Sequence record: NC_054913.1
Reading direction: 5' to 3' (one strand)
DNA: 64,000 nucleotides
Source: Escherichia phage F2
The notes below the pieces were generated by a model. It searched no databases. It was not told the DNA's origin and worked only from the letters and a program-made list of their open reading frames with translations. A program made the position numbers and the translations under genes. Shown here in pieces: positions 14,384 through 18,253 of this stretch; the first letter of the stretch is position 1, and every line of letters starts with the position of its first letter.

Positions 14384-15675
14384 CTGAATATAATGATGAA
14401 GTAAATACACTTTTCAGCTCTAATGGACAGACGCCTTTTGTAACAATTACATTTGGTACTGGAACTGACTGGACTGAACGAATGATTCAGAAGGCAATTC
14501 TTAAAAACCGCATTAAAGGTCTTGGTCGCGACGGAATAACTCCTATTTTCCCTAAACTTGTTATGTTCGTTGAAGAAGGTGTTAATCTTTATAAAGACGA
14601 TCCGAATTATGATATTAAGCAGCTTGCTCTAGAGTGTGCAAGCAAAAGAATGTATCCTGATATTATTTCAGTTAAGAATAATAAAGCTATCACTGGTTCA
14701 TCTGTTCCTGTTTCTCCAATGGGCTGTCGTAGTTTCTTGAGCGTATGGAAAGATTCGACTGGTAATGAAATTCTTGATGGACGTAATAATCTTGGTGTTG
14801 TAACACTGAATCTTCCTCGTATTGCGTTAGATTCTTATATTGGAACACAGTTCAATGAACAGAAATTTGTTGAATTATTCAATGAACGAATGGATTTATG
14901 TTTTGAAGCATTGATGTGCAGAATTAGTTCCTTAAAAGGAGTTAAAGCTACTGTTGCTCCTATTCTTTACCAAGAAGGTGCATTCGGGGTTCGTCTTAAA
15001 CCTGATGACGATATAATTGAGTTATTTAAAAACGGCAGAAGTTCAGTGTCCCTAGGATACATTGGTATTCACGAATTGAATATTCTTGTCGGACGTGATA
15101 TTGGACAGGAAATTTTAACTAAAATGAATGCTCGTCTTAAGCAGTGGACTGAAAGAACCGGTTTTGCTTTTAGCCTGTATTCTACTCCTGCTGAAAACCT
15201 GTGCTATCGCTTCTGTAAACTTGATACTGAGAAATATGGAAGTGTAAAAGATGTTACTGATAAAGGCTGGTACACTAATAGTTTCCATGTTTCAGTAGAA
15301 GAAAATATCACTCCGTTTGAAAAGATTTCTCGCGAAGCCACATATCATTTCATTGCGACTGGCGGACATATTTCTTATGTTGAACTTCCTGATATGAAAA
15401 ATAACCTAAAAGGTCTTGAGGCTGTATGGGATTATGCTGCACAACATTTAGATTATTTTGGTGTTAATATGCCAGTAGATAAATGTTTTACATGCGGAAG
15501 TACTCATGAAATGACTCCTACTGAAAACGGATTTGTTTGTTCTATTTGTGGAGAAACTGATCCTAAAAAGATGAACACAATAAGAAGAACATGCGGATAT
15601 CTTGGAACTCCTAGCGTTGTTCCATGGAATTTAGGTAAAATGAAAGAAATGGTAAAACGAGTAAAACATGCATAG
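14384..15675 (+). CDS. nrdD: anaerobic ribonucleoside-triphosphate reductase NrdD, exon 2
   Basis: Glycyl-radical C-terminal region with C-terminal Zn ribbon CFTCG...CSICG. Confidence 0.85.
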
Positions 15676-16498
15676 GTATTATATAATTTATAAAATAACA
15701 AATATAATTAATTCAAAGGAATATATCGGTGCGCATAGCACCGATAACATAAATGACGGTTATATGGGGTCAGGAACATTGATTCGTGCCGCTTTATTAA
15801 AATATGGTAGAAAAAATTTTAATAAAGAAATTTTACATGTTTTTGATAATGAAAAACAAATGTATGATAAAGAAGCTGAACTTGTAACCGAAGAGTATTG
15901 TCTAAAAGAAAATACATATAATATTAAACCTGGTGGAAAAGGTGGAACTGCCTATGAACAGACACTTGAACATCGCCGCAAAAATAGTTTAGCAAATAAA
16001 GGTAAAAAGAGAACAGAAGAAACTAAAATAGCTATTTCACGTGCTTTAAAGAAATATAAACGTACGCCAGAGCATCAAGCAAATTTAAATAAAGCCGTAA
16101 GCATAGCTATGAAGCGAAAAGATGTTAGAAGTAAATTAGCTGGAGAGCGGTCTGAGAAAGATAAATTATCTATATCAAACGGTGTTAAAAAATATTACAA
16201 TTCTTTGAGTGAAGAAGAACGCGAACTTCATCGCAAGCGAATTATTGAAGGTAAAAAGAATTCTCCCATGTCATTGGAATCTAGACAAAAGCTTTCAAAA
16301 GCTTTAAAAGGACTTCAAGTTGGTTCAAAAAATCCAATGTATGGAAAAATTTCTCCAACTAGCAAAACCGTTTCAGTTGACGGTATTAAATATGATTCAA
16401 TTAAAAAGTGCTCAAATGCCATAAAAGTTTCTAGACATCTTATACTAAAACGCTGTAATTCTACTGATGAAGCTTGGAAAAATTGGATATTATTATGA
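15668..16498 (+). CDS. free-standing GIY-YIG homing endonuclease (Seg-like)
   Basis: N-terminal GIY-YIG motif (YYIIYKITN...EYIGAH); basic C-terminal repeats; inserted between nrdD and nrdG. Confidence 0.75.
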   Translation: MHRYYIIYKITNIINSKEYIGAHSTDNINDGYMGSGTLIRAALLKYGRKNFNKEILHVFDNEKQMYDKEAELVTEEYCLKENTYNIKPGGKGGTAYEQTLEHRRKNSLANKGKKRTEETKIAISRALKKYKRTPEHQANLNKAVSIAMKRKDVRSKLAGERSEKDKLSISNGVKKYYNSLSEEERELHRKRIIEGKKNSPMSLESRQKLSKALKGLQVGSKNPMYGKISPTSKTVSVDGIKYDSIKKCSNAIKVSRHLILKRCNSTDEAWKNWILL

Positions 16499-16965
16499 AT
16501 TATGACAGAATATACCCGTGCTGCTTTGTTAATGGCCCTGGTTGCAGGGTCGTTCTTTTCGTTACGGGTTGTTTGCATAAATGCGAAGGGTGTTATAATA
16601 AATCAACATGGAATGCTAGAAATGGTATTCCATTCACTGGTGAAACACTAGAACAATTGATTGAATGTTTGAATAATGATTATATAGAAGGATTAACTAT
16701 AACCGGAGGAGACCCTCTCTATCCTGATAACCGAGATGTTATTCATCGCATTGCTCAAACAGTAAAAAATCTTTATCCCAATAAAAGCATTTGGTTGTGG
16801 ACAGGATATAAGTTTGAAGATATTAAACAACTAGAAATGCTTAAATATGTTGATGTTATTATTGATGGTAAGTATGAGAAAAATCTTCCGACCAAAAAGT
16901 TGTGGCGAGGATCAGATAATCAGCGACTTTGGTCAAATACCAATGGGGTGTGGAAACATGATTAA
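16495..16965 (+). CDS. nrdG: anaerobic ribonucleotide reductase activating protein (radical SAM)
   Basis: Cys cluster CLHKCEGC, TITGGDPL; position after nrdD. Confidence 0.9.
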   Translation: MNYDRIYPCCFVNGPGCRVVLFVTGCLHKCEGCYNKSTWNARNGIPFTGETLEQLIECLNNDYIEGLTITGGDPLYPDNRDVIHRIAQTVKNLYPNKSIWLWTGYKFEDIKQLEMLKYVDVIIDGKYEKNLPTKKLWRGSDNQRLWSNTNGVWKHD

Positions 16966-17079: not shown

Positions 17080-17295
17080 ATGTATAAATTTCGTAAAGGT
17101 TTAGCTGATTTTCTTACAACTGTAACGTTCTTTTTGTTTATGGCAGTTGGAGCTATTTTTCTTATTCCTTTTACTGGTGTATTTTTCGTGATTGGTTTAA
17201 TTTCTCCAGAAAAGGGTTTATCCTCCAGCGAATTCAATGAACGTTTGGACAAAATTACTAATAAACTGAATTCTGTTCTTGATAAAAAGGCTTAA
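17080..17295 (+). CDS. small hypothetical membrane protein
   Basis: ATG 17080 within track ORF 17056..17295; hydrophobic core. Confidence 0.45.
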   Translation: MYKFRKGLADFLTTVTFFLFMAVGAIFLIPFTGVFFVIGLISPEKGLSSSEFNERLDKITNKLNSVLDKKA

Positions 17296-17297
17296 TT

Positions 17298-17615
17298 ATG
17301 ATTAGTTTTGAGCGGTATGTAGTAGAGAGTTGGAATGGTTTTGATATGTTCGGTAATGACTATTATTTCTATGAATGTAGTCTGAACCCAAGCTTCTGGG
17401 CTGGACGTGAACAAGACCTCGAAGAAATCAACGCTCGTGCCGATTTGTTAGGTGAACTGCCTACGGTTTATTTTACCTTTGATGAATCCGGCTTCGTTAT
17501 CCAGGTTTATTTTCCTGAAGAAAACTCTGGTGAGGATCCTGTTAATCCTCCTTATTGGGCTTACCAAGGAATTATTTCTCGTGGAACAAAACTCGAACTT
17601 AAAGAACAAGATTGA
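17298..17615 (+). CDS. hypothetical protein
   Basis: 105-aa ORF. Confidence 0.5.
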   Translation: MISFERYVVESWNGFDMFGNDYYFYECSLNPSFWAGREQDLEEINARADLLGELPTVYFTFDESGFVIQVYFPEENSGEDPVNPPYWAYQGIISRGTKLELKEQD

Positions 17616-17904
17616 AATCTATGGCATCCCTGAAGAAGTAGGACGTTGTCCAGGATGTTATACTGTTACAAAACTTTTAAAGGAGCTCAATGCTCCTTAT
17701 ACATTTTATAAAGTCCTCACTAATAATGGTAAGATTGAATACGACCGTCCTTTAATCGTATCTCTTGCTAAACGTGCAGGATTCACTTCACTTAATATTC
17801 GTTATCCTGTCATATTTTTAAATGATAAGAAACAAAAGAATATTGCAGAGTTTAAAAAGTCCTTGATTTCATTAGGATACGACTCTGATATCATAGAAGA
17901 TTGA
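17581..17904 (+). CDS. NrdH-like glutaredoxin/thioredoxin-fold protein (start codon uncertain)
   Basis: IEIYGIPEEVGRCPGC redox motif; no in-frame ATG, candidate starts GTG 17581 or ATT 17611. Confidence 0.55.
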   Translation: MEQNSNLKNKIEIYGIPEEVGRCPGCYTVTKLLKELNAPYTFYKVLTNNGKIEYDRPLIVSLAKRAGFTSLNIRYPVIFLNDKKQKNIAEFKKSLISLGYDSDIIED

Positions 17905-17921
17905 CCAGGTGCCGCCTGGTC
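17903..17921 (+). terminator. terminator-like hairpin
   Basis: gaccaggtgccgcctggtc followed by T-rich tract. Confidence 0.45.
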
Positions 17922-18070
17922 TTCTTTATCTCATTTCTAATATAATCCATTGGAATCTTCACTTCACTATCTCCTTGTGCCCCTCTCAAATCAAAAATAT
18001 TTTTCATAAAACAGTTTACATCCTCGATAGATATGTTAAGATTAAACCATCTGCTATAGAGGAAAACAAA

Positions 18071-18253
18071 ATGACAATTGAAGATAAAGAAATTAAGGTT
18101 GACCAGTATTATTCTGTCAATGGTAATGCAGTACGGATAACCAGAATTTCAAGCCTGGATGTTTGGTACCGTTCAATCAAATATCCAGAAATTGGTGAAA
18201 TGCTTTGTGACCGTAGTATCTTCTGTTCAATTGCGAAGGAAATTAAGCCATGA
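18071..18253 (+). CDS. small hypothetical protein
   Basis: ATG 18071 with GAGGAAAA RBS; track ORF 17909..18253. Confidence 0.4.
   Translation: MTIEDKEIKVDQYYSVNGNAVRITRISSLDVWYRSIKYPEIGEMLCDRSIFCSIAKEIKP

What the first reader, a model, noticed from the sequence alone, without database searches (positions are those of the whole stretch)
17581..17904. NrdH-like redoxin ORF lacks any canonical start codon next to its first beta-strand
The thioredoxin-fold sequence IEIYGIPEEVGRCPGC begins right where the upstream 105-aa ORF stops (TGA 17613-17615), in the +1 frame. There is no in-frame ATG; the only candidates are GTG 17581, ATT 17611 or a +1 frameshift fusing the two ORFs. This could be unusual initiation, programmed frameshifting or a sequencing indel.
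Basis: seen in the sequence. Interest (0 to 1): 0.5.

Follow-up and report, generated by a model that had tools for sequence, protein, structure and literature searches.

The report
Phage nrdH gene starts at GTG
This is the ordinary T4-type nrdH glutaredoxin gene of a T4-like coliphage, which starts at a GTG codon behind a normal ribosome-binding site, as annotated in phage T4 itself, so no frameshift, exotic start or sequencing error is needed.

Summary
The window is a T4-like coliphage (Mosigvirus; 99.4% identical to PhAPEC2 and JK45). The ORF at 17581-17904 is the orthologue of T4 nrdH (gene 55.7), a CPGC glutaredoxin.

IEIYG begins at 17611. The upstream 105-aa ORF stops at TGA 17613-17615, and nrdH lies in the +1 frame. 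Two points are wrong. GTG is a canonical bacterial start codon. There is also an in-frame ATG at 17482.

GTG 17581 is the start:
- It has the only good Shine-Dalgarno sequence among six candidate starts: AAGGA at 17566-17570, -5.4 kcal/mol, against -2.4 or weaker for the others.
- GTG and the Shine-Dalgarno sequence are conserved in all 17 loci aligned from four genera, and in Kanagawavirus.
- The homologous codon is ATG in Karamvirus.
- In T4 and phage RZ, an in-frame stop just upstream leaves GTG as the only start.
- T4 RefSeq already annotates nrdH with this GTG.

A programmed frameshift is contradicted. T4 has no upstream ORF to fuse with. In close relatives that ORF stops 6 nt earlier, through a change that is silent in nrdH. 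A sequencing indel is contradicted by 140 independent records at 95% identity or more.

Verdict: ordinary and already known.

The parts
17581..17904 (+). nrdH (T4 gene 55.7 orthologue) coding sequence: 107 codons plus TGA stop, read as fMet-EQNSNLKNKIEIYGIPEEVGRCPGC...
   Evidence: tblastn gives 86% identity to T4 nrdH over residues 8-107 and 99% to Mosigvirus records. phrog_22 thioredoxin domain, E=1.2e-15. Annotated with exactly these limits in phage mogra and, in homologous positions, in YUEEL01, RZ, PSD2001, dhabil and T4.
17581..17583 (+). GTG initiation codon of nrdH
   Evidence: Conserved as GTG in all 17 aligned loci of Mosig-, Tequatro-, Gapriver- and Dhakavirus and in Kanagawavirus. 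It is ATG in Karamvirus. In T4 and RZ an in-frame stop lies 3 and 2 codons upstream of the GTG (8 and 9 open codons before IEIYG), so it is the only possible start.
17566..17570 (+). Shine-Dalgarno sequence AAGGA, 10 nt before the GTG
   Evidence: Predicted anti-SD duplex of -5.4 kcal/mol, the best of six in-frame candidate starts and within the top 8% of sampled window positions. AAGGA(A/G) is conserved in the alignment. Orthologous sites score -5.4 to -8.6 kcal/mol.
17647..17658 (+). CPGC redox-active motif (TGT CCA GGA TGT)
   Evidence: Direct reading. Same motif as T4 NrdH. Aligns with the CVYC/CGPC site of T4 glutaredoxin structures 1AAZ/1ABA.
17298..17615 (+). Upstream 105-aa gene (RB69ORF082c-like, unknown function) that overlaps the first 35 nt of nrdH in another frame
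   Evidence: phrog_2749, E=1e-49. Annotated as a separate CDS in PhAPEC2, mogra and YUEEL01. Absent from T4.
17080..17295 (+). Gene 55.8 homologue (small predicted membrane protein), the gene that directly precedes nrdH in T4
   Evidence: phrog_1930, E=3e-35. PhAPEC2 annotation note and T4 gene order.
17903..17931 (+). Intrinsic-terminator-like hairpin (GACCAGG-TGCCG-CCTGGTC) plus T-rich tail that overlaps the last 2 nt of the nrdH stop codon
   Evidence: Terminator scan. Annotated as a terminator in PhAPEC2.
17482..17484 (+). It is an alternative start used by the PhAPEC2 annotation and is rejected here.
   Evidence: No Shine-Dalgarno sequence (-2.4 kcal/mol at a 13-nt spacer). The frame upstream of the GTG is closed by stops in T4 and RZ.
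17611..17613 (+). ATT, the Ile codon of IEIYG.
   Evidence: No Shine-Dalgarno sequence (-0.9 kcal/mol). In orthologues with ATG starts the ATG precedes this Ile codon.

Best explanation
The ORF is the phage's nrdH gene (T4 gene 55.7), a small CPGC glutaredoxin-fold redoxin encoded downstream of the anaerobic ribonucleotide reductase genes nrdD and nrdG. Translation starts conventionally at GTG 17581, read as fMet. The ribosome is positioned by the Shine-Dalgarno sequence AAGGA at 17566-17570. The product has 107 residues, with a 10-residue hydrophilic N-terminal extension (MEQNSNLKNK) before beta-strand 1 (IEIYG). The start and its Shine-Dalgarno sequence lie inside the 3' end of an unrelated upstream gene (17298-17615), giving a 35-nt out-of-frame overlap of the kind common in T4-like genomes.

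Shown here: gene identity, conservation of GTG plus Shine-Dalgarno sequence, and exclusion of other starts in relatives. Inferred: that ribosomes actually initiate at the GTG, and the biochemical activity of the protein.
For: 1. Identity. The locus is 99.4% identical to Mosigvirus PhAPEC2 and JK45, with 444 matching records. The protein is 86% identical to T4 nrdH. Gene order is the same: nrdD, nrdG, 55.8, (ORF082c), nrdH, 55.6.
2. T4 RefSeq NP_049686 is annotated from GTG, with AAGGA 6 nt upstream and an in-frame TAA 4 codons upstream.
3. In an alignment of 17 loci from four genera, GTG is invariant. AAGGA(A/G) is conserved in 16 loci, and the seventeenth (L005) has GGGGG in its place. In T4-type loci and in RZ the frame is closed just upstream, so GTG is the only start common to all.
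4. Kanagawavirus keeps the GTG (GAAGGTGG Shine-Dalgarno sequence, -8.6 kcal/mol). Karamvirus has ATG at the homologous codon: MENSQLRAKIYG against V-EQNSNLKNKIEIYG.
5. Among six in-frame candidate starts in the window, only GTG 17581 has a real Shine-Dalgarno sequence: -5.4 kcal/mol, against +0.3 to -2.4 for the others.
6. The segment between GTG and IEIYG varies by 15, 21 or 30 nt, always in frame and without stops.
7. In L004, L006-L009 and L013, a C-to-T change is synonymous in the nrdH frame (AAC to AAT, Asn) but creates an earlier TAA in the upstream ORF. The overlap therefore appears constrained as nrdH coding sequence.
Against: There is no direct protein-level evidence (N-terminal sequence, ribosome profiling) for this phage. 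The 1996 paper that characterised T4 NrdH was not available to read.

The 10-nt spacer between the Shine-Dalgarno sequence and the start is at the long end of the efficient range. The predicted local mRNA fold pairs part of the Shine-Dalgarno region, so initiation may be weak.

Annotators disagree. PhAPEC2 uses ATG 17482, and Q7622 uses an upstream ATG.
Confidence: 0.9

Rival explanations
1. Translation starts at the in-frame ATG 17482, as annotated in PhAPEC2, giving a 140-aa protein with a 43-residue N-terminal extension encoded inside the upstream gene.
For: ATG 17482 is in frame with no stop before the redoxin domain. The PhAPEC2 RefSeq annotation uses it. It is present in the Mosigvirus and Tequatrovirus loci that carry ORF082c.
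Against: There is no Shine-Dalgarno sequence (-2.4 kcal/mol at a 13-nt spacer). The extension (MNPASLSRFIFLKKTLVRILLILLIGLTKELFL) is an out-of-frame read of another conserved gene. The frame is closed by stops 2-3 codons upstream of the GTG in T4-type loci and RZ. Redoxin orthologues are 89-107 aa long.
Confidence: 0.04
2. Non-canonical initiation at ATT 17611, directly at beta-strand 1, possibly alongside the GTG.
For: It would give an N-terminus (M-EIYG) like the distant orthologues that begin MIEIYG or MKIEIYG. AUU is a known rare start in E. coli, as in infC (own knowledge).
Against: There is no Shine-Dalgarno sequence upstream (-0.9 kcal/mol). The ATT is simply the conserved Ile codon. 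Where orthologues start near the strand, they use an ATG placed before that Ile. A conserved GTG with a Shine-Dalgarno sequence lies 30 nt upstream, so the ATT is not needed.
Confidence: 0.03
3. A programmed +1 ribosomal frameshift at the end of the upstream ORF fuses it to the redoxin domain.
For: The redoxin is in the +1 frame, and the upstream stop TGA (17613-17615) lies exactly at the start of IEIYG.
Against: - T4, T2 and loci L010-L012 have nrdH with the same GTG and Shine-Dalgarno sequence and no ORF082c. There the preceding gene 55.8 ends 2 nt before the GTG, in a different relative frame.
- In L004, L006-L009 and L013 the upstream ORF stops 6 nt earlier (TAA). In Gapriver- and Dhakavirus the overlap is 20 nt, so there is no conserved shift site.
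- The codons before the stop (GAT TGA A) do not form a prfB-like slippery site, and no Shine-Dalgarno sequence lies 3 nt upstream (direct reading, plus own knowledge of prfB).
- Distant orthologues have their own ATG behind varied upstream genes.
Confidence: 0.01
4. A sequencing or assembly indel destroyed the true ATG or the true frame.
For: None beyond the lack of an adjacent ATG.
Against: 38 records are at least 99% identical across the 701-nt query around the locus, and 102 more are 95-99% identical, from many laboratories. The 17 loci inspected all keep the frame and the GTG, including the T4 reference genome.
Confidence: 0.01

Closest known systems
Bacteriophage T4 NrdH glutaredoxin (gene 55.7; NP_049686.1)
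   Same: Orthologue: 86% protein identity over residues 8-107, the same CPGC motif, and the same genomic position downstream of nrdD-nrdG-55.8 and upstream of 55.6. It has the same GTG start preceded by AAGGA.
   Different: The window's protein has a 10-residue stretch before IEIYG, including the initiator, where T4 has 5 (an in-frame 15-nt difference). A 105-aa gene (RB69ORF082c-like) lies between 55.8 and nrdH and overlaps the nrdH start by 35 nt. T4 lacks that gene.
T4 glutaredoxin / 'T4 thioredoxin' NrdC (PDB 1AAZ, 1ABA)
   Same: The only solved structures found by sequence search. The glutaredoxin fold aligns from beta-strand 1 (KVYG against EIYG) through residue 83, with the CxxC motif in the same place.
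   Different: The similarity is weak (E about 0.01). The motif is CVYC rather than CPGC. NrdC starts with ATG two residues before the strand. It is a different gene at a different locus.
Bacterial NrdH-redoxin (NCBIfam TIGR02194, C[V/M]QC motif, electron donor for class Ib RNR)
   Same: A small glutaredoxin-fold redoxin associated with ribonucleotide reductase genes, and it shares the gene name.
   Different: No NCBIfam hit to that family at E<=1. The motif is CPGC. The gene is linked to class III (anaerobic) nrdD/nrdG rather than to nrdEF. The phage 'nrdH' is a gene name and does not indicate membership of the bacterial family.
prfB-type programmed +1 frameshifting and infC-type AUU initiation (E. 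coli)
   Same: Only a superficial resemblance: a +1 frame relationship at a stop codon, and an ATT at the first strand.
   Different: There is no slippery codon, no closely spaced Shine-Dalgarno stimulator and no conservation of the site. There is no Shine-Dalgarno sequence in front of the ATT.

Membership tests
T4-type NrdH (gene 55.7) orthologue group | Sequence similarity to T4 NP_049686 across the whole redoxin domain | tested here: met
   tblastn gives 86.0% identity over residues 8-107 to T4 and T2 records, E=3e-53.
T4-type NrdH (gene 55.7) orthologue group | Conserved position: downstream of nrdD-nrdG-55.8 and upstream of 55.6 | tested here: met
   Annotations of PhAPEC2, mogra and T4. 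NrdG confirmed by Pfam Fer4_12/Radical_SAM. 55.8 confirmed by phrog_1930.
T4-type NrdH (gene 55.7) orthologue group | CPGC active-site motif after beta-strand 1 | tested here: met
   TGT CCA GGA TGT at 17647-17658. Identical in T4.
T4-type NrdH (gene 55.7) orthologue group | GTG start with an AAGGA Shine-Dalgarno sequence, as in the T4 reference annotation | tested here: met
T4-type NrdH (gene 55.7) orthologue group | Glutathione-dependent glutaredoxin activity | not testable with these tools
   Activity was reported for T4 NrdH by Gvakharia et al. 1996 (cited in PMC8022965). That paper is not held.
Pfam Glutaredoxin (PF00462) | Score at or above the gathering threshold (22.9 bits) | tested here: not met
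   21.0 bits, E=3.8e-4, just below the cut-off. The fold assignment rests instead on phrog_22 (E=1.2e-15) and on the alignment to 1ABA/1AAZ.
Bacterial NrdH-redoxin (TIGR02194) | Match to the family model and a C(V/M)QC motif | tested here: not met
   NCBIfam scan at E<=1 returns only a weak GlrX_YruB hit (13.6 bits, cut-off 88.55). The motif is CPGC.
Programmed +1 ribosomal frameshift (prfB-like) | Conserved slippery codon plus in-frame stop plus closely spaced upstream Shine-Dalgarno sequence, and obligatory linkage of the two ORFs across orthologues | tested here: not met
   The upstream ORF is absent in T4-type loci. Its stop position varies (TGA 17613 against TAA 6 nt earlier, and 20-nt overlaps in Gapriver- and Dhakavirus). 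The codons are GAT TGA, not CTT TGA.
Non-AUG/GUG/UUG initiation (AUU, infC-like) | AUU preceded by a functional Shine-Dalgarno sequence, with no better start available | tested here: not met
   Anti-SD duplex of -0.9 kcal/mol before ATT 17611, against -5.4 before GTG 17581.

The most novel reading that the evidence does not exclude
The nrdH start site may have migrated during Tevenvirinae evolution. Distant genera (Jiaoda-, Slopek-, Krisch-, Pseudotevenvirus) keep an ATG directly before IEIYG. In the T4, Mosigvirus, Gaprivervirus and Dhakavirus clade that codon is Lys in all but one sampled locus (AAG/AAA, one base from ATG). There, initiation has moved 5-10 codons upstream to a weaker GTG buried in the 3' end of the preceding gene.

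This could set a low, translationally coupled level of NrdH. Some minor second initiation at ATT 17611 is also not excluded.
Probability: 0.3. Interest if true: 0.15.

Novelty: already known. Interest (0 to 1): 0.08.

Why it matters
It matters mainly for annotation. Public records of near-identical phages disagree on the nrdH start (140 aa from ATG in PhAPEC2, 107 aa from GTG in mogra and others, 113 aa in Q7622). The comparative evidence here fixes it at the conserved GTG. It has no wider mechanistic consequence: GTG starts and short out-of-frame gene overlaps are routine in T4-like phages.

Tried and rejected
- ATG 17482, GTG 17530, TTG 17479 and GTG 17452 as starts. None has a Shine-Dalgarno sequence, and the frame is not open in T4 or RZ.
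- ATT 17611 as a start. It has no Shine-Dalgarno sequence.
- A +1 frameshift fusion. The upstream ORF is absent in T4, and its stop position varies.
- A sequencing indel. The arrangement recurs in 140 records at 95% identity or more.
- Membership of the bacterial NrdH-redoxin family. There is no model hit.
- Reading the primary T4 literature. Miller et al. 2003 (PMC150520) and Gvakharia et al. 1996 (doi 10.1074/jbc.271.26.15307) are not held, so no published N-terminal sequence could be cited.
- Two paper searches failed on the term-length rule.
- The IMG/VR scan gave only 9 loci, so the comparative set came mostly from GenBank phage records.
- The large protein-database searches, structure prediction and fold search were not used, because they could not bear on start-codon choice.

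Full report
**What is in the sequence**

- The frame that encodes IEIYGIPEEVGRCPGC... ends at TGA 17902-17904.
- IEIYG begins at ATT 17611.
- The upstream 105-aa ORF (17298-17615) ends at TGA 17613-17615, and the redoxin is in the +1 frame relative to it.
- GTG 17581 is in frame, 10 codons before IEIYG.

Two statements do not hold. First, the frame is open back to 17452 and contains an in-frame ATG at 17482, along with TTG 17479, GTG 17530 and GTG 17452. Second, GTG is itself a canonical bacterial initiation codon, so 'lacks any canonical start' is overstated.

**What the gene is**

- Megablast of 17250-17950 finds 444 phage records. The best, at 99.4%, are Mosigvirus genomes (PhAPEC2, JK45). 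38 records are at least 99% identical and 102 are 95-99% identical.
- A 10-kb context search confirms a Mosigvirus background.
- In these records the ORF is annotated as glutaredoxin / 'T4-like nrdH, anaerobic glutaredoxin'.
- The neighbourhood is nrdD, nrdG, a 33-aa ORF, 55.8, an RB69ORF082c-like gene, nrdH, a terminator and 55.6. T4 has the same order without ORF082c.
- tblastn finds the protein in 1350 phage records. Identity to T4 and T2 is 86% over residues 8-107.
- Family scans give phrog_22 'thioredoxin domain' at E=1.2e-15. Pfam Glutaredoxin scores 21.0 bits, just under its 22.9-bit threshold. There is no hit to the bacterial NrdH-redoxin model in NCBIfam.
- The only solved relatives by sequence are the T4 glutaredoxin NrdC structures 1ABA and 1AAZ. 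They align from beta-strand 1 (KVYG against EIYG), with the CxxC motif in register.

So the protein is a T4-type 'NrdH' glutaredoxin. The name is a phage gene name and does not place it in the bacterial NrdH-redoxin family.

**Where translation starts**

*The T4 reference.* T4 RefSeq annotates nrdH (NP_049686) from a GTG. The sequence reads ...AGTAAGGAATAGTT-GTG-AAA-CAA-AAT-AAG-ATT-GAA-GTC-TAT-GGA. AAGGA lies 6 nt upstream of the GTG, and an in-frame TAA lies 4 codons upstream. In T4 the GTG is therefore the only possible NTG start.

*Close relatives.* I aligned the start regions of 17 loci: the window, Mosigvirus, Tequatrovirus with and without ORF082c, Gaprivervirus, Dhakavirus and IMG/VR contigs.
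- GTG is invariant.
- The AAGGA(A/G) Shine-Dalgarno sequence is conserved. One contig has GGGGG instead.
- In RZ (Gaprivervirus) and the T4-type loci the frame is closed 2-3 codons upstream of the GTG.
- The ATG equivalent to 17482 exists only where the out-of-frame ORF082c sequence happens to supply it.

*More distant genera*.
- Kanagawavirus Q7622 keeps the homologous GTG (GTG GAA AAC CAA TCA CTA AAG ATT GAG) behind GAAGGTGG, at -8.6 kcal/mol. Its annotators chose an upstream ATG.
- Karamvirus KMB17 has ATG at the homologous codon (MENSQLRAKIYG).
- Jiaoda-, Slopek-, Krisch- and Pseudotevenvirus, the Acinetobacter phage Apostate and phage Ursula start with ATG 1-2 codons before the strand (MIEIYG, MKIEIYG, MNIEIYG). 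Gelderlandvirus starts 3 codons before it (MSAKIEIYG).

*Shine-Dalgarno strength in the window*. Anti-SD duplex energies for the six in-frame candidates are:

| Candidate start | Energy (kcal/mol) | Note |
|---|---|---|
| GTG 17581 | -5.4 | AAGGA, about 10-nt spacer |
| ATG 17482 | -2.4 | |
| TTG 17479 | -2.4 | |
| GTG 17530 | -1.0 | |
| ATT 17611 | -0.9 | |
| GTG 17452 | +0.3 | |

Only 8% of sampled window positions reach -5 kcal/mol.

*The segment between GTG and IEIYG.* It differs in length among lineages (15, 21 or 30 nt), always in frame and free of stops.

**Frameshift and indel readings**

A fusion of ORF082c to NrdH is not needed and is contradicted by four observations.
- T4-type genomes have nrdH with the same GTG and Shine-Dalgarno sequence but no ORF082c. 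Gene 55.8 ends 2 nt before the GTG, in a different relative frame.
- In L004 (a 99%-identical Mosigvirus) and in L006-L009 and L013, a C-to-T change makes the upstream ORF stop 6 nt earlier (CAA to TAA). The same change is synonymous in nrdH (AAC to AAT). The overlap therefore appears constrained as nrdH coding sequence, and the GAT-TGA junction is not conserved.
- Overlap lengths vary: 35, 29, 20, 4 and 1 nt, or a 2-nt gap, across genera.
- GAT TGA A is not a prfB-like slippery site, and no Shine-Dalgarno sequence lies 3 nt upstream (direct reading, plus own knowledge of prfB).

A sequencing indel is excluded by the many independent genomes with the same arrangement.

**Mechanism**

Shown here: gene identity, the conserved GTG and Shine-Dalgarno sequence, and the exclusion of other starts in relatives.

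Inferred: ribosomes initiate at GTG 17581 with fMet and make a 107-residue glutaredoxin-fold protein, whose first 10 residues form a variable hydrophilic extension.

The start lies inside the preceding gene. Ribosomes finishing ORF082c would therefore pass over it, and some translational coupling is plausible but untested. A hairpin plus T-tract at 17903-17931 follows the stop (annotated as a terminator in PhAPEC2). An early-type promoter-like site at 18015-18042 precedes the 55.6 homologue. nrdH is therefore probably the last gene of its transcription unit.

Function is inferred from T4. Gvakharia et al. 1996 showed that the T4 protein is a functional glutaredoxin. That paper is cited in PMC8022965, but I could not read it.

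**Novelty and score**

The GTG start of nrdH is already in the T4 reference annotation and in most annotations of related phages. Nothing here departs from standard bacterial initiation.

The residual points of mild interest are these:
- Published annotations of near-identical genomes are inconsistent (140, 107 and 113 aa).
- The start may have moved from an ATG adjacent to beta-strand 1, kept in distant genera, to an upstream GTG in the T4/Mosigvirus clade. In that clade the old ATG position is a Lys codon in all but one sampled locus, one base away from ATG.

Interest is low.

Noticed in passing
window 15668-16498 (+): A 276-aa homing endonuclease lies between nrdD and nrdG and overlaps the nrdG ATG (16495); it has Pfam NUMOD3 and a sub-threshold I-TevI DNA-binding match, and I call it GIY-YIG-type by eye from its N-terminus. 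It is 100% identical over 921 nt to the 'SegH homing endonuclease' region of Tequatrovirus genomes (PP01, EC121, N2) and is present in only 79 records. The flanking genome is Mosigvirus, about 87% identical to Tequatrovirus at nrdH. PhAPEC2 has no gene at this spot, and T4 has mobC (HNH) there. This looks like recent transfer of a mobile segH cassette between genera.
   Followed up: partly
window 17298-17615 (+): A conserved 105-aa gene of unknown function (phrog_2749, RB69ORF082c-like) lies between 55.8 and nrdH. It is present in Mosig-, Gapriver- and Dhakavirus and in some Tequatroviruses, but absent in T4 and T2. In T4 the deletion boundary lies immediately upstream of the AAGGAAT Shine-Dalgarno sequence of nrdH, so the Shine-Dalgarno sequence and GTG are preserved.
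   Followed up: partly
L001 (PhAPEC2 NC_024794) 1733-2155; L017 (Q7622 NC_070778) 665-1006: RefSeq annotations of nrdH in these phages start at upstream ATGs (140 aa and 113 aa) inside the preceding gene, not at the conserved GTG. These are probably start-site mis-annotations.
   Followed up: yes
window 17903-17931 and 18015-18042 (+): An intrinsic-terminator-like hairpin with a T-tract overlaps the end of the nrdH stop codon. An early-type promoter-like site (TTTACA, 16 nt, TAAGAT, with an upstream TG) lies ahead of the gene 55.6 homologue, which starts at 18072.
   Followed up: no
window 16474-16965 (+): The mechanical ORF for nrdG begins at TTG 16474. The orthologous annotation (156 aa) and the Pfam match fit ATG 16495 (MNYDRIYPCC...), which overlaps the segH stop as ATGA.
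   Followed up: partly
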